A DNA stretch of 64,000 bases from Candidatus Iainarchaeum sp. GTDB lineage: Archaea > Iainarchaeota > Iainarchaeia > Iainarchaeales > JAZDFD01. Shown in pieces: positions 4,870 through 40,607 of the stretch. Position numbers and translations under genes: made by a program. Under the pieces are notes generated by a model. It had not been told where the DNA came from and searched no databases. It saw only the letters and a list, made by a program, of their open reading frames with translations. The DNA is taken from positions 5,501-69,500 of the forward strand of contig JAZDFD010000001.1 in assembly GCA_043808155.1 (NCBI GenBank). Direction: 5' to 3'. Numbering within the stretch: position 1 is the first letter of the stretch; each line of letters starts with the position of its first letter.

Positions 4870-5111
4870 GGGGTCATAGTGTAACCTGGTATCACCACAG
4901 GCTCCAGAATTTTTATTTTTGGAGGCGGAGGGCATGTATTGTGCCCAATGACGAATAACAGGTAGGATGAGTCTGCTTTTGCAGGCAGTGACAAAAAATG
5001 TGAGTGCTTAAAGCACGAACAAGTGTCAGTGAAACTGACACGAATTCGCACGCGGAATTTGCCGCGTAGTGGAGTTACCTGTTAATCTGGGTTCAAATCC
5101 CGGTGACCCCA
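4870..5111 (+). tRNA. tRNA-Trp (anticodon CCA) with a ~169-nt intron at the canonical 37/38 position (about 4908..5076)
   Basis: Manual fold. Acceptor GGGGTCA pairs with TGACCCC, anticodon stem ACAGG pairs with CCTGT, anticodon loop is CTCCAGA, T-arm is CTGGG-TTCAAAT-CCCGG, discriminator A. Intron 3' TGGAG can pair with anticodon-loop CTCCA in a BHB-like arrangement. Confidence 0.8.
4908..5076 (+). ncRNA. tRNA-Trp intron with box C/D sRNA-like motifs
   Basis: C-box-like AATGACGA at 4947 is followed by ATAACAGGT, which is complementary to 3'-exon nucleotides 38-45. GATGAG lies at 4967 and CTGA at 5025. An internal copy of the hairpin plus GC-box module lies at 5014..5076. Confidence 0.4.
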
Positions 5112-5201
5112 CATTTCTTTTTTAGAATATTAATGAGGTATTGAGCGAAATCCGCCAATGGGACATAGAGTGTGCAAAGAACTTTAAGTTAATTGTAATA
5201 T

Positions 5202-6161
5202 GTGTTAGTTATGAACAAAAAATTTACAATTGGTATTCCTGCACATAATGAAGAAGAATCAATTGAAAGAACATTAAATAGTTTACTGAAAAGTAAAGTT
5301 CCCGCAGGTTACGAAAGAGAGATTATTGTTTGTGCGCATAATTGTCATGATAAAACAGCTGAAATAGTAAAACAGATTGCGAAAAAAGATAAAGAGGTAA
5401 AATTAATTGAACTCAGAACAACAGGAAAAAAAGAGGGGCGATTCAATCCATTAAATGAAATTAGGCGTGTCAGTAATTCAGAGATTATTATTTTTTGTGA
5501 CGCCGATGTGATAGTTGATAGCAGAGCCATAGGCAGACTTGTTTTAGATTTTGAAAAAATGCCACATATATTAGCAGCTTCAGGCGTATCGCGACCCACA
5601 GAAAGCAGAATTTTCATAAAACAAAAAGATCCAGCTAATATAATTACGTCTTTGAGAAAAAAACAAATACGAGAACCTGCTTTGCATGGTAGATTGTATG
5701 GAATAAGAACAAAATTAGTTCCGATATTTCCGCCATTAATGTTAGATGACCTTTTTATGTCTGCATGGGTAGGTAAAAACAGAATGCACATCGACCCAGA
5801 CGTAAAAGTATATTCCCGAAGCCCTCAAACAGTTGAAGACTATTATAAAAGACAGGTTTTGATGTACATAGCTGAACAAGAAATACTGGAAAATGCAGAA
5901 CGTTATGCTAAAGAGTACAGAGGAACTAAATCTGCGAGTTTGGATGATTTTATTAAATATGTGGAAGGTGTTGCTAAAAGCTACGAATTTGATCCTAAAA
6001 AAGTCCACAAGCCTCTGACTCAGGAAGAAACGTCTTTTGTTGAAGTTTATAAAATGCTGAGGGAAACAGCGAAAATGCATTCTCAGTGGGAACGTGACCC
6101 TCAGTGGGTTAAGACTCACAGTGCCAAATTGAAAAAAATAAATCCCAGTCACAGAAAATAA
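5202..6161 (+). CDS. Family 2 glycosyltransferase
   Basis: N-terminal IGIPAHNEEESI and CDADV (DxD) motifs typical of GT-A fold GT2. Confidence 0.75.
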   Translation: MLVMNKKFTIGIPAHNEEESIERTLNSLLKSKVPAGYEREIIVCAHNCHDKTAEIVKQIAKKDKEVKLIELRTTGKKEGRFNPLNEIRRVSNSEIIIFCDADVIVDSRAIGRLVLDFEKMPHILAASGVSRPTESRIFIKQKDPANIITSLRKKQIREPALHGRLYGIRTKLVPIFPPLMLDDLFMSAWVGKNRMHIDPDVKVYSRSPQTVEDYYKRQVLMYIAEQEILENAERYAKEYRGTKSASLDDFIKYVEGVAKSYEFDPKKVHKPLTQEETSFVEVYKMLRETAKMHSQWERDPQWVKTHSAKLKKINPSHRK

Positions 6162-6202
6162 ACTGAGAAATCCTTAAATAGTCCTGATTCTTTATTTATA
6201 CC

Positions 6203-6763
6203 ATGGCTATTAAGCAGAGAAATATGCTCTCGGAAGCAAGAAATGCTTTTTCAAAAAGTGATGTTTTCAAACTTCGTGAACTGAGCAATGAAGCCGTGAG
6301 GAACGCCTCACTGAATAATGATAAATTTATGGCAGAAATTGCAATTCTGGCTTATGCACTGCACAAACTTTCATCAAAAGAACACATTACAAAAAGCAGA
6401 CAATGGGAAACTATAAAAAAGAATATTCTGCGTTCAATGAGCAAAACAATTTCACTAATGGAATCTGAAAATTTAAAGGAATTCAAACAAAGTCTTAAAG
6501 AAGTAGTTGAGAGCGTAAGTGATGCAGATACTCATTTGGGCTATTTTTCACAGACACTTTACAGTAAAGCGCGGATAAAAGTTGCATCAACAGCTTATTC
6601 CTTAGGCATGTCTTTAAGTCAGGCAGTTGATTTAACAGATGCAGACAAAAGCAGATTACTTTCATATATTGGTGGCACGAGAATTTCAGACGAAGAAGTT
6701 GTCCACTTGGGAATTGCGGAAAGACTTGAAAAATTAAAGAAAGAACTGAGTGATAAGAAATGA
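6203..6763 (+). CDS. Hypothetical protein
   Basis: ORF with a 4-nt overlap to the downstream PIN-like gene. No recognisable motif. Confidence 0.35.
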   Translation: MAIKQRNMLSEARNAFSKSDVFKLRELSNEAVRNASLNNDKFMAEIAILAYALHKLSSKEHITKSRQWETIKKNILRSMSKTISLMESENLKEFKQSLKEVVESVSDADTHLGYFSQTLYSKARIKVASTAYSLGMSLSQAVDLTDADKSRLLSYIGGTRISDEEVVHLGIAERLEKLKKELSDKK

Positions 6764-9376: not shown

Positions 9377-9441
9377 AATATTACCGCACTATCGCACAGC
9401 AATAGTGCACATACAGATCTCCACCAGATCTCTCCGGTGTG
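9377..9441 (+). repeat. Composite two-hairpin repeat, copy 1 (aatattaccg - hairpin - cacatac - palindromic agatctccaccagatct)
   Basis: Flanks are conserved with the copies at 9532, 12434, 22653, 22737, 35257 and 40525. The stem is cactat/atagtg. It abuts the tRNA-Pro(GGG) 3' end. Confidence 0.55.
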
Positions 9442-9531: not shown

Positions 9532-9599
9532 CATATTACTGCAGGTTCGAATGAAATGAGAATCTGCACATATTCGTACCCGCCGGACGTGACGGCGAA
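9532..9599 (+). repeat. Composite two-hairpin repeat, copy 2 (catattactg - hairpin caggttc..gaatctg - cacatat - GC box cccgccggacgtgacggcg)
   Basis: Lies between the two tRNA-Pro genes. The stem mismatch is G-U compatible only on the + strand. Confidence 0.55.
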
Positions 9600-22080: not shown

Positions 22081-22440
22081 ATGCTGATAGAAGCGCTTAC
22101 ACATTTAGTTGCATTGGACCTAGACTGGTTTATCTCATTAGTAATGGGAAATTTGCACTTTGTTTTTGCATTATTTGCAGTAATCTACATGTTCTTTGAA
22201 GGTAAGAATTTAATTAAAGGTTTTTTTTTGATTGTTTTCATTCTTTGGACTCTTTCTGAATTTGAAAAAGTTACAAATATTGCAGTTTTTGTAGGTGGAT
22301 TTCTTACAATTTATTATTTGACAAAAATTGCATTATTAGCAATAACCGAAGACAGCACTTTCTTGAATAAATATTTTGTTCCAATTAGTACAATACAGGC
22401 ATATGTTGTGTTATTATTTTACAATTGGTTTTTGATGTGA
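22081..22440 (+). CDS. Hypothetical membrane protein
   Basis: Three predicted TM helices. Confidence 0.35.
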   Translation: MLIEALTHLVALDLDWFISLVMGNLHFVFALFAVIYMFFEGKNLIKGFFLIVFILWTLSEFEKVTNIAVFVGGFLTIYYLTKIALLAITEDSTFLNKYFVPISTIQAYVVLLFYNWFLM

Positions 22441-22444
22441 TAAA

Positions 22445-22630
22445 ATGAGTTTCCTTTCAAGATTAACAAAAATTTGTGCGTTCGTACTTTTCGCTTACAC
22501 ATTTCTTTGGTTTTATGAATTAGTTACAGGAGATGTGCTTGTGTCTACTTTGATTTACACACCAATGGGTTTCTTTGTAATATTTGCTCTGGTCACGGGT
22601 GAAGCTTATTTCAATAATATTGGACTCTAA
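22445..22630 (+). CDS. Small hypothetical membrane protein
   Basis: Two hydrophobic helices, adjacent to the previous membrane ORF. Confidence 0.3.
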   Translation: MSFLSRLTKICAFVLFAYTFLWFYELVTGDVLVSTLIYTPMGFFVIFALVTGEAYFNNIGL

Positions 22631-22652: not shown

Positions 22653-22715
22653 AATATTACTGTCTTATCGGAGATAGGACACATATGCTCACGCAAGGGA
22701 CTCCGTCCCTTTGCA
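22653..22715 (+). repeat. Composite two-hairpin repeat, copy 4a (aatattactg - hairpin tcttatc..gatagga - cacatatg - GC hairpin gcaagggac..gtccctttgc)
   Basis: Same architecture as the other copies. The stem mismatch is a U-G pair on the + strand. Confidence 0.5.
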
Positions 22716-22736
22716 AACCCTGAAACTTTTTAATAG

Positions 22737-22804
22737 AATATTACTGCGGGGTTGAAAACCCCGCATATATGTTCACAATCGGAACGCCGATTAGCCCCGA
22801 GGAG
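22737..22804 (+). repeat. Composite two-hairpin repeat, copy 4b (aatattactg - hairpin cggggttgaaaaccccg - catatatg - hairpin atcggaacgccgat), ending in a 13-nt fragment of the tRNA-Gln 3' end (tagccccgaggag)
   Basis: The 13-nt tail at 22792..22804 is identical to 22871..22883 inside tRNA-Gln. The hairpin is near-identical to one inside the tRNA-Arg intron. Confidence 0.55.
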
Positions 22805-22870
22805 TTCCACACATAGGGGCAACTACGTTTCCCCCTATTACCCCCTTCCTTTAATTATTAATAAAAAAGA

Positions 22871-22943
22871 TAGCCCCGAGGAGATTCGAACTCCTGTCAC
22901 CGGGTCCAAAGCCCAGCATCCTTGGCCACTAGACTACGGGGCT
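22871..22943 (-). tRNA. tRNA-Gln (anticodon TTG)
   Basis: Acceptor AGCCCCG pairs with CGGGGCT, anticodon stem CTGGG pairs with CCCGG, loop CTTTGGA, T-arm AGGAG-TTCGAAT-CTCCT. Confidence 0.85.
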
Positions 22944-22969
22944 AGTTTAAAGGAACTTAATAATTAGCT

Positions 22970-24181
22970 TTAGATTACGTATTTAAAGCTTTCTGGACTG
23001 AAAATATTGAACTTAGTTTTGTATTTTTTGATTTTGTTTAAGTTATGTTTTTGAGGGAGGGTAGCGCAGTTGGTAGCGCACGCGACTGATAATCGCGCGG
23101 TCATGGGTTCGAATCCCATTCTTCCCACTATTTTACGTAGAAGTTCATTTTTCTCCACACCGCAGTATTTTTTGCTCTTTTTTGAAATTTTCACACCATC
23201 AACAAAACCACCTAATTTCCAAAAATTTCTTATTGACTTTGAATCATAAATTCTAACACCACAAGCACCTGACCACGAACTTTTGCGCTTTCCAATTTTT
23301 CCATTGAGTCCATATTTCTTAAAAATAGTCTGCCATTGTTTGCACAAATTTGCATTATAGCATCCTAAATTCAATTCTGACTTCTTAGTTTTTGGATAGC
23401 TAATGCAACCATCAGTTGTAAAAGCAAAGCGAATGCACCAACTAAGTGTCTTCTCATCACATTTGTTTAGAAAATCTAGAGTTGGTTGTGGTTCATTTAA
23501 ATATTCGTTAACAGTTTGTCGATGTGCAGGAGATGTTTTGTAATTTGGGCTTAGTTTAAACAATTTCCGAGATAGAGTTGCATCTGTAAGTTTCAGATTA
23601 AACACTCCTTTTTTAGATTTATTAATTGCAGGCACATATCTACTAAGTCTAAGTAAAAGGCTGTTCATAAAATCCCTCAATATCGGATCTTTTGTAGAAT
23701 AAGCTATTCTATTTCTATCCCCACATGCTGAAAGAGAACCATCTGTCATCAGACAAGTTGCAAGAATGCACATTAGATTAACACAATCTTTTTCAAGCAA
23801 AGTTAGTAACTTATTATCAATTTTAATATTAAAGTCACTTTGAAGATTCTTTCTGCTTATGTGCGTTCTTATATATTTAGTATATTCATAAATATTTTCT
23901 ATTTGAGCTATTCTTGCTGAACCGCCTTTTCTTGCACTCCAATTCATAGGTAATTTCTTCCCAATATAGTTCTCAAATTCTTTCAATTCGGGTTGTAAAA
24001 TACATATTTTCTGAAAAACTGAAAAAGTCATGTTGCATTTTTCTTTTAACCAGTCTTTTAATGTCCATCTGCCGAGTTCTAACAATTCCGAGAGTTCTCT
24101 TTGTGGAAGATTTTGTTTCTTGTAAAAAGCCAATAAAAATTCTCGCTGTTTTCCTTTTTTAAATTTCAGCCTAAAGTTCAT
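22970..24181 (-). CDS. Free-standing double-motif LAGLIDADG-family homing endonuclease-like protein; the 3' end of the ORF reads through the antisense of tRNA-Ile
   Basis: Two LAGLIDADG-like motifs ILATCLMTDGSL and IRFAFTTDGCIS lie about 109 aa apart, each with Asp before Gly. An N-terminal HTH-like region is present. The last ~50 codons are the antisense of tRNA-Ile at 23055..23127, so the true C-terminus is uncertain. Confidence 0.5.
   Translation of the reverse strand: MNFRLKFKKGKQREFLLAFYKKQNLPQRELSELLELGRWTLKDWLKEKCNMTFSVFQKICILQPELKEFENYIGKKLPMNWSARKGGSARIAQIENIYEYTKYIRTHISRKNLQSDFNIKIDNKLLTLLEKDCVNLMCILATCLMTDGSLSACGDRNRIAYSTKDPILRDFMNSLLLRLSRYVPAINKSKKGVFNLKLTDATLSRKLFKLSPNYKTSPAHRQTVNEYLNEPQPTLDFLNKCDEKTLSWCIRFAFTTDGCISYPKTKKSELNLGCYNANLCKQWQTIFKKYGLNGKIGKRKSSWSGACGVRIYDSKSIRNFWKLGGFVDGVKISKKSKKYCGVEKNELLRKIVGRMGFEPMTARLSVACATNCATLPQKHNLNKIKKYKTKFNIFSPESFKYVI
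23055..23127 (+). tRNA. tRNA-Ile (anticodon GAT)
   Basis: Acceptor GGGAGGG pairs with TCTTCCC, D-arm GCGC-AGTTGGTA-GCGC, anticodon stem CGCGA pairs with TCGCG, loop CTGATAA, T-arm ATGGG-TTCGAAT-CCCAT. Confidence 0.85.
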
Positions 24182-24292
24182 ATATTCAAAAGAAAAAGTT
24201 CATTTAAAAACAAACTTGGAGGTACATTTCCGATGAAATCCCTCCTTTCCCATTTCTTTTTCTTTTAAAATATATCTGAACGTAATAGTGAT

Positions 24293-25015
24293 ATGGTTGT
24301 TCCTAAAAAAATAAAAACACAACGAAGAAGCTTACTTCCTCAATTAGGAAATATGAGAATTTCTAAATCTGAAGCGGGAAGAAGACCTGAAAAAGCACAA
24401 TTGGATGCACGTAGGAAAGAAGAGTATTTAGAACATGATAGATACGGGGTTGAAGATGAAAGAACAAAAAAAGGTTGGCCTGCATTTCGTTCTGAATTAT
24501 GGAAAGTTGAAAAAAATTTACAAACAAATATCGTAGAGTATGTTCAAGAAAGAATTTCTAAATTTAGTGAAAAAACCCCTTTCAAAGTTATGGATTTGGG
24601 TTGTGGGGCAGGCGTAGCATTAAAAGAATTGAAAGGGCGACATCGAAAAAAAATAAAAACAACAGGTGTTGTTTTAAGAAAAACATCCGGGGAAACCTAT
24701 GGTGGTGTTGACCGTTTAATTGAAGGGGATATTAACCAAATAAATCCACGTGAAAAATACGATTTAATATTTTCAAATGCAGGCGCTACATTTTATACAC
24801 GACTTAAAACCACTGCATTTGAACGTGTGATTAGTTGGTTAAAACCAGACGGACGAGCAATACTTGAAATGGGCCACATGTCTGAAGATACACTAAATGA
24901 ATTGAAAACACTTCTTATGCAGAATGGAATCAAAAATTATGAACTTCGAAAAGACACTGCAGTAGGTGGAATTATTCTTGATTTTATTAAACCAGTACCC
25001 AAACTCCCAAAATAA
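24293..25015 (+). CDS. Class I SAM-dependent methyltransferase
   Basis: Motif I VMDLGCGAGVA after a basic N-terminal extension. Confidence 0.65.
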   Translation: MVVPKKIKTQRRSLLPQLGNMRISKSEAGRRPEKAQLDARRKEEYLEHDRYGVEDERTKKGWPAFRSELWKVEKNLQTNIVEYVQERISKFSEKTPFKVMDLGCGAGVALKELKGRHRKKIKTTGVVLRKTSGETYGGVDRLIEGDINQINPREKYDLIFSNAGATFYTRLKTTAFERVISWLKPDGRAILEMGHMSEDTLNELKTLLMQNGIKNYELRKDTAVGGIILDFIKPVPKLPK

Positions 25016-40317: not shown

Positions 40318-40360
40318 GTGCCACTTTAGTGGCACCCGTACTAGCCGGACGTGACGGCGT
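40318..40360 (+). repeat. tRNA 5' leader module upstream of tRNA-Arg: hairpin gtgccactttagtggcac plus GC box ccgtactagccggacgtgacggcgtg
   Basis: Directly abuts the tRNA-Arg 5' end. An orphan near-identical copy lies at 40763..40804. Confidence 0.55.
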
Positions 40361-40501
40361 GGGCCTGTGGCGCAACGGATAGCGCAGCTGCCTCCTAACG
40401 GACAGATCCGTTAACGATCTGTATGTGCGGGGTTTTCAACCCCGCGATAATAATACGTGGGAGCGAGCAGAAGGTTGAGAGTTCGATTCTCTCCGGGCCC
40501 G
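40361..40501 (+). tRNA. tRNA-Arg (anticodon CCT) with ~68-nt intron at 37/38 (about 40398..40465)
   Basis: Acceptor GGGCCTG pairs with CGGGCCC, D-arm GCGC-AACGGATA-GCGC, anticodon stem GCTGC pairs with GCAGA, loop CTCCTA(A), T-arm GAGAG-TTCGATT-CTCTC. Intron 3' GGAG pairs with loop CTCC in a BHB-like arrangement. The intron contains hairpin gcggggttttcaaccccgc. Confidence 0.8.
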
Positions 40502-40524: not shown

Positions 40525-40607
40525 AAATATTACTGCACTGTTGTGCAAAACAATAGTGCACATATCGCACTAGCCGGGCGTTCGGCTTTCGATTCTCTCC
40601 GGGCCCG
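40525..40607 (+). repeat. Composite two-hairpin repeat, copy 6 (aaatattactg - hairpin cactgttg..caatagtg - cacatat - GC box ctagccgggcgttcggc) fused to a 20-nt duplicate of the tRNA-Arg 3' end
   Basis: 40588..40607 (ttcgattctctccgggcccg) is identical to 40482..40501. It is followed by palindromic gcctttttaaaaaaaggc. Confidence 0.6.

What the first reader, a model, noticed from the sequence alone, without database searches (positions are those of the whole stretch)
22737..24181. Free-standing LAGLIDADG endonuclease between tRNA-Gln and tRNA-Ile, with a duplicated tRNA-Gln 3' fragment
A 403-codon ORF carries two LAGLIDADG-like motifs, LATCLMTDGS and FAFTTDGC, about 109 aa apart, plus an N-terminal HTH-like extension. 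This is the layout of a monomeric double-motif homing endonuclease. It is not inside an intron or intein. It sits between tRNA-Gln and tRNA-Ile, and its reading frame continues through the antisense of the entire tRNA-Ile gene. A 13-nt copy of the tRNA-Gln 3' end lies 70 nt beyond the tRNA, fused to repeat copy 4b. The endonuclease, the tRNA fragment duplications and the repeats together suggest a small mobile or recently mobilised region targeting tRNA loci.
Basis: partly seen in the sequence, partly recalled or inferred. Interest (0 to 1): 0.6.

Follow-up and report, generated by a model that had tools for sequence, protein, structure and literature searches.

The report
Homing endonuclease cassette at tRNA-Ile gene
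A selfish DNA-cutting-enzyme gene (LAGLIDADG type) appears to have inserted into the end of the isoleucine tRNA gene of a tiny DPANN archaeon; its relatives sit at the same tRNA gene in dozens of other archaeal genomes, which points to a family of mobile genes that target tRNA genes and that I could not find described.

Summary
ORF 22970..24181(-) encodes an N-terminal HTH domain plus a two-motif LAGLIDADG core. It passes Pfam's LAGLIDADG_3 cut-off, models with pLDDT 86, and matches I-Tsp061I and I-DmoI by fold. An acidic residue is kept at both motifs in 44 of 44 relatives, and dN/dS is about 0.2. The conserved protein ends exactly at the 3' end of tRNA-Ile(GAT); the last 51 codons are unconserved read-through.

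New evidence:
- In about 50 loci from Iainarchaeota, Micrarchaeota and Woesearchaeota, the homolog's 3' end abuts tRNA-Ile(GAT). One clade is convergent and one is co-directional. Sister clades abut tRNA-Ile(UAU) or tRNA-Lys(CUU).
- Relative L094 has tRNA-Ile directly followed by the same methyltransferase, with no endonuclease gene.
- The window keeps a displaced old tRNA-Ile 3' end (24230-24252) upstream of the endonuclease promoter. Comparable tRNA fragments flank the gene in other lineages.
- The linked tRNA-Ile is far more diverged than the neighbouring tRNA-Gln (73% against 97% between the window and L012).

Best reading: a free-standing homing-endonuclease cassette targeted to a tRNA gene, which restores that gene after insertion. 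The insertion is old, not recent. Cleavage activity and the target site are inferred, not shown. The tRNA-Gln fragment is real, but its link to the endonuclease is unproven.

The parts
23129..24181 (-). Conserved core of the HTH-LAGLIDADG endonuclease gene (codons 1-351)
   Evidence: Pfam LAGLIDADG_3 above its cut-off. Twenty-nine homologs align up to about aa 350. AF2 pLDDT 86 with Foldseek hits to I-Tsp061I, I-DmoI, PI-PfuI, bI3 maturase and WhiA. dN/dS 0.21 against L012.
22970..23128 (-). Unconserved 51-codon read-through tail, running antisense through tRNA-Ile and into the Ile-Gln spacer
   Evidence: pLDDT is below 50 for aa 363-403. Homolog tails differ in length and in reading frame through the tRNA: P0001 reads the tRNA in another frame, and P0010 stops after 9 aa.
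23942..24181 (-). N-terminal helix-turn-helix-like domain (about aa 1-80)
   Evidence: Weak HTH_3 and HTH_28 hits. HTH families are precomputed on homologs P0013, P0021 and P0029. Five confident helices in the model.
23738..23767 (-). LAGLIDADG motif 1 (LATCLMTDGS, with D147)
   Evidence: T146, D147 and G148 are nearly invariant. This position is D or E in 44 of 44 full-length relatives.
23405..23428 (-). LAGLIDADG motif 2 (FAFTTDGC, with D257)
   Evidence: D257 and G258 are nearly invariant. This position is D or E in 44 of 44 relatives.
23055..23128 (+). Intact tRNA-Ile(GAT), convergent with the endonuclease gene and abutting the end of its conserved core
   Evidence: ARAGORN and Rfam, 70.7 bits. 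The same adjacency is seen in about 50 related loci. It is only 73% identical to the L012 copy, while tRNA-Gln is 97%.
24230..24252 (+). Displaced remnant of an older tRNA-Ile 3' end (T-loop to discriminator base), followed by that tRNA's original downstream flank
   Evidence: Window 24237-24287 aligns to the tRNA-Ile 3' end plus flank of empty-site locus L094 (positions 67-116). The score is 55, against a maximum of 30 in 1000 shuffles. The same remnant is present in L012.
24202..24235 (-). Endonuclease promoter region: TATA-like box (24202-24211) and the conserved CA(T/C)CGGAAA motif (24225-24235)
   Evidence: A TATA-like box lies 25-50 nt upstream of the conserved Arg codon of the RLKF motif near the start, and a CACCGG(A/C)A-type motif lies 56-76 nt upstream of it, in most convergent-clade loci. 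Function is inferred.
22869..22944 (-). tRNA-Gln(TTG), divergent neighbour of tRNA-Ile
   Evidence: It follows tRNA-Ile in many related loci, either 100-300 nt away or about 1.5 kb away.
22792..22804 (-). 13-nt exact copy of the tRNA-Gln 3' end (CTCCTCGGGGCTA)
   Evidence: It is conserved in L012. Analogous partial copies occur behind tRNA-Gln in L001, L031 and L064. Its relation to the endonuclease is unproven.
22653..22810 (-). Two tandem hairpin-element units of the form hairpin 1 - GTGARCATATRTG - hairpin 2 - CAGTAATATT
   Evidence: The pattern occurs twice here against 0 expected. L012 has one unit, and the window has an extra 84 nt bounded by CAGTAATATT repeats. Related elements lie behind both tRNA-Pro genes and inside a tRNA intron.

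Best explanation
The ORF is the gene of a free-standing, monomeric HTH-LAGLIDADG homing endonuclease. It forms a compact cassette of about 1.1 kb (own promoter, gene, and a replacement tRNA end) inserted into the T-loop / 3' end region of the chromosomal tRNA-Ile(GAT) gene of a Diapherotrites (Iainarchaeota) archaeon.

Shown:
- The protein is a LAGLIDADG enzyme by sequence and by fold. It keeps both acidic motif residues and is under purifying selection.
- A relative has the same tRNA-Ile-to-methyltransferase junction without the gene.
- The window keeps the displaced old tRNA 3' end on the far side of the gene.
- The family is tied to specific tRNA genes, clade by clade.

Inferred:
- The enzyme cuts a tRNA-Ile allele that lacks the cassette, in or near the T-loop.
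- Repair copies the cassette from a carrier genome.
- Because the cassette supplies a new tRNA end, or in some lineages a whole tRNA, the essential tRNA stays functional and the old end is left as a decaying fragment.

The window's copy is an old insertion, shared with L012, but it still looks functional. The 51-codon tail across the antisense tRNA is an accident of the junction: that frame of the tRNA has no stop codon.
For: Family and fold:
- Pfam LAGLIDADG_3 above its cut-off.
- AF2 model at pLDDT 86; the top Foldseek hits are all LAGLIDADG enzymes.
- D or E at both motifs in 44 of 44 relatives.
- dN/dS 0.17-0.26 in four close pairs.

Linkage to tRNA:
- tRNA-Ile(GAT) lies within about 100 nt of the conserved C-terminal motif in at least 43 loci by a strict 7-mer test. 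About 1% is expected by chance.
- The loci come from Iainarchaeota, Micrarchaeota and Woesearchaeota MAGs.
- In the NJ tree the convergent-Ile loci form one clade. The co-directional-Ile loci form one adjacent cluster, and the Ile(UAU) and Lys(CUU) loci form separate clades.

Empty site:
- L094 has tRNA-Ile, a 38-nt spacer, then a methyltransferase 67% identical to the window's, with the carbamate kinase at 89%.
- L094 positions 67-116 align to window 24237-24287, score 55 against a shuffle maximum of 30.

Footprints elsewhere:
- 3' tRNA remnants lie 55-87 nt upstream of the start in the window, L012, L014 and L033.
- 5' tRNA fragments lie 41-67 nt upstream of the start in six co-directional loci.
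- In L065, both a 5' and a 3' remnant flank [endonuclease gene + complete tRNA].

Hypervariable linked tRNA:
- tRNA-Ile is 73% identical and tRNA-Gln 97% identical between the window and L012.
- tRNA-Gln is the more conserved of the two in 74 of 78 locus pairs.

Decay:
- Two of the relatives are disrupted, L021 and L033, as expected in a homing-endonuclease life cycle.
Against: - No cleavage assay exists, and the target site is only inferred from where the remnants end.
- How the restored tRNA-Ile escapes cutting is unexplained. It has no intron in the window.
- Only one empty site was found, and its contig ends 5 nt upstream of the tRNA.
- No near-identical copies were seen in different genomic contexts.
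- There are no hits in viral contigs, phage records or plasmid records.
- Purifying selection, clade-specific arrangement and partial synteny would also fit long vertical inheritance of a domesticated gene. The synteny consists of tRNA-Gln next door in many lineages and a weak 119-aa homolog near L007.
- Remnants reach significance in only a subset of loci.
- tRNA-Ile may be intrinsically more variable than tRNA-Gln, and the 78 pairs are not independent.
Confidence: 0.72

Rival explanations
1. It is a domesticated LAGLIDADG DNA-binding protein in the manner of WhiA. On this view it is a resident host gene, for example a regulator acting at the tRNA-Ile/tRNA-Gln locus through its HTH and the conserved CACCGG motif. 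It would be inherited vertically, and the tRNA fragments would be relics of one ancient insertion.
For: - dN/dS is about 0.2 and most copies are intact.
- The arrangement is clade-specific.
- tRNA-Gln is a conserved neighbour.
- A conserved motif sits upstream of the gene's own promoter.
- No copy was found on viruses or plasmids.
- WhiA is among the fold hits.
Against: - Both catalytic-position acidic residues are kept in 44 of 44 relatives. From my own knowledge, WhiA has lost them.
- The gene is absent from relative L094 at the same junction.
- Remnants differ in kind between lineages (5' fragments against 3' fragments, and different tRNAs). This needs several independent insertions.
- The best NCBIfam WhiA score is 14.8 against a cut-off of 44.1.
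Confidence: 0.15
2. It is a leftover of a larger integrase-driven element (plasmid or virus) that integrated into the tRNA-Ile 3' end. The LAGLIDADG gene would be a surviving passenger, and the direct tRNA repeats would be attL/attR.
For: - From my own knowledge, direct repeats of a tRNA 3' end around an insert are the classic integrase footprint.
- tRNA genes are known archaeal integration sites (discussed in PMC3293823).
Against: - The insert between the tRNA and its remnant is only about 1.1 kb and holds nothing but the endonuclease gene and its promoter.
- The same minimal unit recurs in many lineages, with the remnant at a fixed 41-87 nt from the start codon.
- No integrase gene is called next to it in the loci inspected.
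- The tRNA partner tracks the endonuclease phylogeny.
Confidence: 0.08
3. It is an RNA-acting protein: a maturase-like LAGLIDADG factor that helps process or splice the adjacent pre-tRNA rather than cutting DNA.
For: - The bI3 maturase and the bifunctional I-AniI are top fold hits.
- Many linked tRNA-Ile genes carry unusual introns.
Against: - The window's tRNA-Ile, and most convergent-clade copies, have no intron.
- From my own knowledge, archaeal bulge-helix-bulge (BHB) introns are cut by the EndA enzyme without maturases.
- This reading does not explain the empty site or the remnants.
Confidence: 0.04

Closest known systems
Archaeal intron- and intein-encoded LAGLIDADG homing endonucleases (I-DmoI, I-Tsp061I, PI-PfuI)
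   Same: Monomeric two-domain LAGLIDADG fold. TM-score normalised to the target is 0.60-0.73 to I-Tsp061I and I-DmoI. Acidic residues sit at the ends of both motif helices. The host is archaeal.
   Different: This gene is not inside an rRNA intron or an intein. It is free-standing with its own promoter and has an extra N-terminal HTH domain of about 120 aa. It is associated with a tRNA gene, not with rRNA or a protein-coding gene. Sequence identity to the solved structures is only 12-18%.
Phage T4/T6 SegB, a free-standing GIY-YIG homing endonuclease in the tRNA gene cluster (PMC13096335; Brok-Volchanskaya 2008, cited there)
   Same: Both are free-standing endonuclease genes sitting among tRNA genes. 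SegB cuts inside tRNA genes at RAWTSGAAC, which is the T-loop sequence read on the antisense strand. The remnants here also break at or near the T-loop. SegB promotes inheritance of the linked tRNA region.
   Different: Different nuclease family (GIY-YIG against LAGLIDADG). SegB is in phage genomes, this gene in cellular ones. SegB is linked to many tRNA isotypes, whereas each clade here is tied to one tRNA. No displaced tRNA fragments are described for SegB in the text I read.
Intronless and collaborative homing (T4 SegF; cyanophage F-CphI with the psbA intron; reviewed in PMC2988022, PMC6083498)
   Same: An endonuclease gene lies next to, not inside, the gene it targets. In collaborative homing a nearby intron breaks the recognition site. 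In the co-directional clade here, the endonuclease-linked tRNA often carries a D-loop intron that the displaced old fragment lacks.
   Different: Here the introns are archaeal bulge-helix-bulge (BHB) type, not group I. The cassette also duplicates part of the target. That the intron gives immunity is speculation.
Caldiarchaeum subterraneum tRNA-Thr(GGU) locus: a 5' tRNA fragment, a 1.87-kb insertion with an 813-bp ORF, and a tRNA that gained an intron (PMC3293823)
   Same: The architecture matches the co-directional clade almost exactly: an old 5' tRNA fragment, an insert encoding one DNA-binding-type protein, then a tRNA whose new 5' part carries an extra intron.
   Different: That ORF's family was not identified. 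It was called a recombinase by a machine-learning predictor, and I could not obtain its sequence to test it. The tRNA and the phylum differ, and only one locus was described rather than a family.
WhiA (bacterial LAGLIDADG-derived transcription factor)
   Same: A LAGLIDADG scaffold combined with an HTH domain, and it is a fold hit.
   Different: In WhiA the HTH is C-terminal and the catalytic residues are lost (my own knowledge). Here the HTH is N-terminal and the acidic residues are kept. NCBIfam WhiA scores 14.8 against a cut-off of 44.1.

Membership tests
LAGLIDADG homing endonuclease (monomeric, two-motif) | Profile match to a LAGLIDADG family above the curated threshold | tested here: met
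   PF14528 scores 33.9 bits against a cut-off of 22.5, in two stretches. Most homologs carry PF14528.
LAGLIDADG homing endonuclease (monomeric, two-motif) | Two alpha-beta-beta-alpha-beta-beta-alpha domains forming a pseudo-dimer | tested here: met
   AF2 pLDDT 86 with secondary-structure order H-E-E-H-E-E-H twice. Among 101 Foldseek matches at E<=0.001, all 50 listed are LAGLIDADG proteins.
LAGLIDADG homing endonuclease (monomeric, two-motif) | Conserved acidic residue at the end of each LAGLIDADG helix (metal binding) | tested here: met
   D147 and D257 are present. These positions are D or E in 44 of 44 relatives.
LAGLIDADG homing endonuclease (monomeric, two-motif) | Site-specific double-strand DNA cleavage with 4-nt 3' overhangs | not testable with these tools
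   Needs purified protein and substrate DNA.
Homing (mobile) endonuclease gene | Presence/absence polymorphism at a defined site between related genomes | tested here: met
   L094 lacks the gene at the same tRNA-Ile-to-methyltransferase junction. This is a single example, at a contig end.
Homing (mobile) endonuclease gene | Target is a conserved sequence, and the insertion sits at or in the target | tested here: inconclusive
   The gene always abuts a specific tRNA gene and is flanked by tRNA fragments. The recognition site itself is unknown.
Homing (mobile) endonuclease gene | Evidence of horizontal spread (phylogeny incongruent with the host, or identical copies in different contexts) | tested here: inconclusive
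   The family occurs in three DPANN phyla and the linked tRNA-Ile is hypervariable. No host tree was available, no near-identical copies in different contexts were seen, and there are no hits on viruses or plasmids.
Intron- or intein-encoded endonuclease | ORF lies inside a self-splicing or BHB intron, or in frame within a host protein | tested here: not met
   The ORF lies outside the tRNA, on the opposite strand, with its own TATA-like box. In co-directional loci the upstream tRNA fragment is decaying and mismatches the acceptor stem, so it is not a 5' exon.
WhiA-type domesticated LAGLIDADG regulator | Match to the WhiA profile, loss of catalytic residues, C-terminal HTH | tested here: not met
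   TIGR00647 scores 14.8 against a cut-off of 44.1. The acidic residues are kept. The HTH is N-terminal.
Integrase-driven tRNA-integrating element | Tyrosine or serine recombinase gene within the segment bounded by the tRNA repeats | tested here: not met
   The 1.1-kb segment 23129-24229 holds only the LAGLIDADG ORF.
Integrase-driven tRNA-integrating element | Direct repeat of the tRNA 3' part at both ends of the insert | tested here: met
   The intact tRNA-Ile ends at 23128 and the remnant lies at 24230-24252.

The most novel reading that the evidence does not exclude
These cassettes may be a general, still active cause of 'disrupted' tRNA genes in archaea. On this reading a LAGLIDADG endonuclease breaks a tRNA gene and repairs the damage by bringing its own tRNA end or whole tRNA. 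In the co-directional clade that replacement carries a new non-canonical (D-loop) intron which the displaced old fragment lacks. If so, homing endonucleases would create stray tRNA fragments, drive fast turnover of tRNA alleles, and seed new tRNA introns and perhaps split tRNAs. The intron could serve as the cassette's protection against its own enzyme, an archaeal counterpart of collaborative homing.
Probability: 0.3. Interest if true: 0.85.

Novelty: new variant of a known kind. Interest (0 to 1): 0.7.

Why it matters
Homing endonucleases are known from introns, inteins and phage genomes. I found no description of a cellular, free-standing LAGLIDADG family tied clade by clade to particular tRNA genes; my searches were five full-text queries.

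If the inference holds, three things follow:
- It adds tRNA genes to the target range of LAGLIDADG enzymes, giving new natural meganuclease specificities with an added HTH module.
- It gives a concrete, testable mechanism for an old question in archaeal tRNA biology: how tRNA fragments, non-canonical introns and split genes arise (PMC3293823 proposed a mobile element but could not name the enzyme).
- It explains why an essential tRNA gene can evolve much faster than its neighbour.

It also has a practical use. ORF callers extend these genes through antisense tRNA sequence and through conserved upstream DNA, so tails such as GFEPxT and heads such as MNxGNxPL in database proteins are artefacts of the junctions.

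Tried and rejected
Searches that gave nothing useful:
- Sequence search of the PDB found nothing; only the fold search worked.
- NCBIfam gave only a sub-threshold WhiA hit.
- Viral contigs, phage records and plasmid records had no homolog.
- Rfam, even at permissive E-values, names nothing in the tRNA-Gln downstream element.
- A cluster look-up of ten core-only relatives gave no taxonomy.
- The supplements of PMC3293823 hold no sequence of the Caldiarchaeum ORF, so I could not test it for LAGLIDADG.

Searching for further empty sites:
- Through the 119-aa neighbour, L092 and L093 diverge after the 61-aa gene and their contigs end before any tRNA.
- Through more distant methyltransferase homologs, L095-L098 have unrelated contexts.

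Ideas considered and dropped:
- 'The gene lands next to many different tRNAs.' Wrong for the main clades: the varied C-terminal tails are the same tRNA-Ile read in different frames.
- 'The endonuclease sits in a giant D-loop intron of tRNA-Ile' in co-directional loci. Rejected because the upstream 5' fragments are decaying and pair worse with the acceptor 3' strand than the copy after the gene does.
- A 5' remnant upstream of the intact tRNA in convergent loci. Not found, except possibly in L047 and L048.
- A palindromic GGGCCC acceptor stem as a shared half-site for both orientations. Dropped because the window's tRNA-Ile has a GGGAGGG acceptor.
Full report
**1. The observation**

The window carries a 403-codon ORF at 22970..24181 on the minus strand. 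tRNA-Gln(TTG) lies at 22869-22944(-) and tRNA-Ile(GAT) at 23055-23128(+). An intron-containing tRNA at 40361-40501 marks the organism as an archaeon. Exact-match database entries name the source as a Candidatus Diapherotrites (Iainarchaeota) MAG contig of 94 kb.

The protein passes Pfam's curated cut-off for LAGLIDADG_3 (33.9 bits against 22.5, two stretches). It also has weak HTH_3 and HTH_28 hits at its N-terminus.

An AlphaFold2 model built on 30 sequences has mean pLDDT 86 and shows the helix-strand-strand-helix-strand-strand-helix pattern twice. D147 and D257 each sit at the end of a long helix. Foldseek against the PDB returns 101 matches at E<=0.001, and all 50 listed are LAGLIDADG proteins: I-Tsp061I, I-DmoI, PI-PfuI, bI3 maturase, I-AniI, I-SceI and WhiA.

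The 13-nt copy of the tRNA-Gln 3' end is exact: 22792-22804 equals 22871-22883. About 5e-7 such matches are expected by chance in 300 nt.

One correction is needed. The gene body does not lie between the tRNAs. It lies beyond tRNA-Ile, and only its tail crosses that tRNA.

**2. The tail is read-through**

Twenty-nine homologs of 32-72% identity align only up to about residue 350, ending ...EKNxLL.... Codon 352 is the first to overlap tRNA-Ile.

Residues 363-403 model with pLDDT below 50. In homologs the tails differ in length and frame. Many look like antisense tRNA translated in one frame or another (GGFEPPTARLSV..., IRTRDRTIISR..., NRTPNRSIISR...).

The conserved protein therefore ends exactly at the tRNA's 3' end. 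The extra 51 codons exist only because that frame of the antisense tRNA has no stop codon.

**3. A conserved link to one tRNA**

Those tails prompted a look at genomic context. I fetched 91 loci with homologs from genomes and metagenomes. The named ones are Iainarchaeota, Micrarchaeota and Woesearchaeota MAGs.
- In most loci whose homolog is at least about 39% identical, a tRNA-Ile(GAT) gene lies right at the gene's 3' end.
- A strict test for the anticodon-loop 7-mer within about 100 nt of the conserved C-terminal motif is positive in at least 43 loci. About 1% would be expected by chance.
- Loci that fail this test mostly have intron-split tRNA-Ile genes.

The arrangement comes in two forms. 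In the convergent form, as in the window, the two genes meet 3' end to 3' end. In the co-directional form the endonuclease gene runs into the tRNA's 5' end.

In a neighbour-joining tree the convergent loci form one clade and the co-directional loci one adjacent cluster. Further out lie a pair of loci next to tRNA-Ile(UAU) and a clade next to tRNA-Lys(CUU). More distant relatives have no tRNA partner. Each lineage of the protein thus has its own tRNA and its own orientation. This is the pattern expected when a homing endonuclease family diversifies in target specificity.

tRNA-Gln(TTG) often follows tRNA-Ile, sometimes with an unrelated gene inserted between them (a serpin in L010, a DAO-family oxidase in L007).

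**4. Empty site and footprint**

I searched for relatives through the flanking methyltransferase (24293-25015). Locus L094 has a methyltransferase 67% identical to the window's. The start of its carbamate kinase is 89% identical. In L094, tRNA-Ile(GAT) is followed after 38 nt directly by the methyltransferase, with no endonuclease gene.

The window still contains the matching sequence.
- Between the endonuclease start codon and the methyltransferase lies CCGATGAAATCCCTCCTTTCCCA (24230-24252), followed by TTTCTTTTTCTTTTAAAATATATCTGA...
- This aligns to the T-loop-to-3'-end of L094's tRNA-Ile plus its downstream flank. L094 positions 67-116 align to window 24237-24287 with a score of 55, against a maximum of 30 in 1000 shuffles.

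So the roughly 1.1 kb from 23129 to 24229 holds only the endonuclease gene and its TATA-like box. It is bracketed by an intact tRNA-Ile 3' end and a displaced older one. The remnant's last nine bases (CCTTTCCCA) match L094's tRNA, not the window's present tRNA-Ile (TTCTTCCCA).

L012, the closest relative (protein 72% identical), carries the same remnant. The insertion therefore predates their split. With dS of about 0.75, it is not recent.

**5. Footprints in other lineages**

I compared the 250 nt upstream of each homolog with a panel of tRNA-Ile ends and scored the matches against shuffles.

Convergent loci:
- Significant 3'-end remnants lie 55-87 nt upstream of the start codon in the window, L012, L014 and L033.
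- Weaker remnants occur in L025, L040, L007 and L010.

Co-directional loci:
- The mirror image appears: the first 17-22 nt of a tRNA-Ile (acceptor 5' strand to D-loop), 41-67 nt upstream of the start.
- This is seen in L016, L024, L026/27, L028, L050 and L052.
- These fragments are decaying. In L050 the fragment mismatches the acceptor 3' strand, while the copy after the gene pairs perfectly. They are leftovers, not exons.

L065: both a 5' and a 3' fragment of an old tRNA flank a unit made of the endonuclease gene plus a complete, different tRNA.

Right after the remnants come conserved sequences. Convergent loci have a CACCGG(A/C)A motif about 25 nt upstream of a TATA-like box. Co-directional loci have ...ATTTATxCGTTAA..TTAAATA. 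Several database proteins carry N-terminal extensions (MNxGNxPL...) that are simply this DNA translated.

**6. Is the gene functional?**

- An acidic residue occupies both motif positions in 44 of 44 full-length relatives.
- dN/dS is 0.21 between the window and L012, and 0.17-0.26 in three other close pairs.
- Two relatives, L021 and L033, are disrupted.
- The window holds no paralog.

**7. The linked tRNA evolves unusually fast**

Between the window and L012, sequence identities are:

| Segment | Identity |
|---|---|
| tRNA-Gln | 97% |
| tRNA-Gln-proximal spacer | 89% |
| tRNA-Ile | 73% |
| 55 nt upstream of tRNA-Ile | 62% |
| Endonuclease gene | 79% |
| Neighbouring 119-aa gene | 91% |

Across 78 pairs drawn from 13 loci that have both tRNAs, tRNA-Gln is the more conserved in 74. 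Mean identity is 85% against 72%. The pairs are not independent, and tRNA-Ile might be intrinsically more variable. Still, the contrast fits either repeated replacement of the tRNA together with the cassette or selection for alleles that escape cutting.

**8. Mechanism**

Shown: everything in sections 1-7.

Inferred:
- The enzyme cuts tRNA-Ile alleles that lack the cassette. In the convergent clade the cut would be near the T-loop, where the remnants begin. In the co-directional clade it would be near the D-loop.
- The break is repaired from a carrier genome, copying promoter, gene and a replacement tRNA end.
- The essential tRNA is thereby restored, and the old end is pushed aside to decay.

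Unexplained: how the restored tRNA avoids being cut. In many co-directional loci the restored tRNA carries a D-loop intron that the old fragment lacks. This could break the recognition site, but the intron is not universal and the window's tRNA has none.

**9. The tRNA-Gln fragment and the repeats**

The 13-nt tRNA-Gln copy is conserved in L012. Similar partial copies ending at the T-loop follow tRNA-Gln in L001, L031 and L064. They look like a second footprint of the same kind with the insert reduced to 44-87 nt, but nothing ties them to this endonuclease.

The copy forms one stem of a hairpin element with the pattern hairpin - GTGARCATATRTG - hairpin - CAGTAATATT.
- The window has two tandem units.
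- L012 has one. The window's extra 84 nt are bounded by CAGTAATATT repeats.
- Related elements follow both tRNA-Pro genes.
- One element shares an identical 20-nt hairpin with the intron of the tRNA at 40361-40501. An inverted one follows that tRNA.

This is a family of elements found behind tRNA genes and of unknown function. It is not part of the endonuclease cassette.

**10. Comparison with what is known**

- Structurally the protein belongs with archaeal LAGLIDADG enzymes. Unlike them it is free-standing, has an added HTH, and is tied to a tRNA gene rather than to an rRNA intron or an intein.
- Functionally the nearest analogue is phage SegB. It is a free-standing GIY-YIG enzyme in tRNA clusters that cuts tRNA genes at the T-loop motif RAWTSGAAC (PMC13096335).
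- The combination of an adjacent endonuclease with an intron in the target recalls collaborative homing (PMC6083498, PMC2988022).
- The co-directional architecture closely matches the single Caldiarchaeum tRNA-Thr locus described in PMC3293823. There an old 5' fragment, a 1.87-kb insert with one unidentified ORF, and a tRNA with a newly gained intron were attributed to a mobile element.
- Five full-text searches found no description of this family.
- The profile finds 861 cluster representatives at E<=0.001 and 108 at E<=1e-30, so the wider family is not small.

**11. Verdict**

The finding is real. Its core reading, a free-standing LAGLIDADG endonuclease that belongs to a tRNA-targeting mobile unit, is well supported by comparative evidence. 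I rate it a new variant of a known kind, with interest of about 0.7.

Noticed in passing
window 22653-22810(-); 9377-9440(-); 9532-9598(-); 40420-40454(+); 40526-40565 (inverted): A family of small elements of the form hairpin - (G)TATGTG/CATATRTG - hairpin of variable sequence - CRGTAATATT. They sit just behind tRNA-Gln (two units) and behind both tRNA-Pro genes. One lies inside the intron of the tRNA at 40361-40501 and has a 20-nt hairpin identical to 22746-22765. An inverted copy lies behind that tRNA. The stems differ between copies while the flanks are conserved. CAGTAATATT-like 10-mers occur 24 times against 7.5 expected. There is no Rfam match and the function is unknown.
   Followed up: partly
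window 22661-22744 versus L012: The window has an extra 84-nt hairpin-element unit that L012 lacks. It is bounded by direct CAGTAATATT repeats, so it arose either by tandem duplication or by insertion with a 10-bp target duplication.
   Followed up: partly
L001 7417-7480; L031 1871-1935; L064 829-930; window 22792-22868: Partial copies of the tRNA-Gln 3' end, breaking at the T-loop, lie 44-87 nt behind tRNA-Gln in several unrelated lineages. In L031 and L064 the segment also begins with a tRNA-Gln-like 5' end, giving a mini or degenerate tRNA-like unit.
   Followed up: partly
window 40340-40351 and 40569-40580: Direct repeats ACTAGCCGGACG and ACTAGCCGGGCG flank the intron-containing tRNA at 40361-40501. 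This could be another insertion footprint.
   Followed up: no
L016, L019, L020, L024, L026-L029, L049, L050 (just after the endonuclease gene): tRNA-Ile(GAT) genes in the co-directional clade carry non-canonical D-loop introns, and often a second intron in or next to the anticodon loop. One subgroup has a conserved intron end GGGCTAAA that can pair with the exon sequence TAGC. ARAGORN miscalls several of these genes, or misses them.
   Followed up: partly
L065 about 4950-6250: An old tRNA is split into a 5' fragment (GGGCCCATAGCTCAAT, about 45 nt upstream of the endonuclease start) and a 3' fragment (T-arm plus CATGGGCCC, 10 nt after the new tRNA). These enclose the endonuclease gene and a complete tRNA with a different acceptor stem.
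   Followed up: partly
L042, L053; L055, L059-L061, L063: Sister clades of the protein sit directly upstream of tRNA-Ile(UAU), which has two introns, and of tRNA-Lys(CUU). This suggests shifts of target within the family.
   Followed up: partly
L021 1937-3059; L033 2228-3373: Two homologs are interrupted: the ORF stops after 86 aa in L021 and after 250 aa in L033, while the similarity continues. They are probably pseudogenes or sequencing errors. L033 has a very clear tRNA remnant.
   Followed up: no
L010 7346-8581; L007 7416-8573; L018, L044, L048: The spacer between tRNA-Ile and tRNA-Gln varies from about 100 nt to about 1.5 kb. In some lineages it holds an unrelated gene (a serpin, a DAO-family oxidase), so the spacer is a hot spot for insertions.
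   Followed up: no
window 22081-22630; L092 3318-4363; L093 946-1895: The 119-aa and 61-aa membrane-protein genes next to the locus are followed in relatives L092 and L093 by a paralog of the 119-aa gene rather than by the tRNAs. Gene order beyond this point therefore differs between close relatives.
   Followed up: partly
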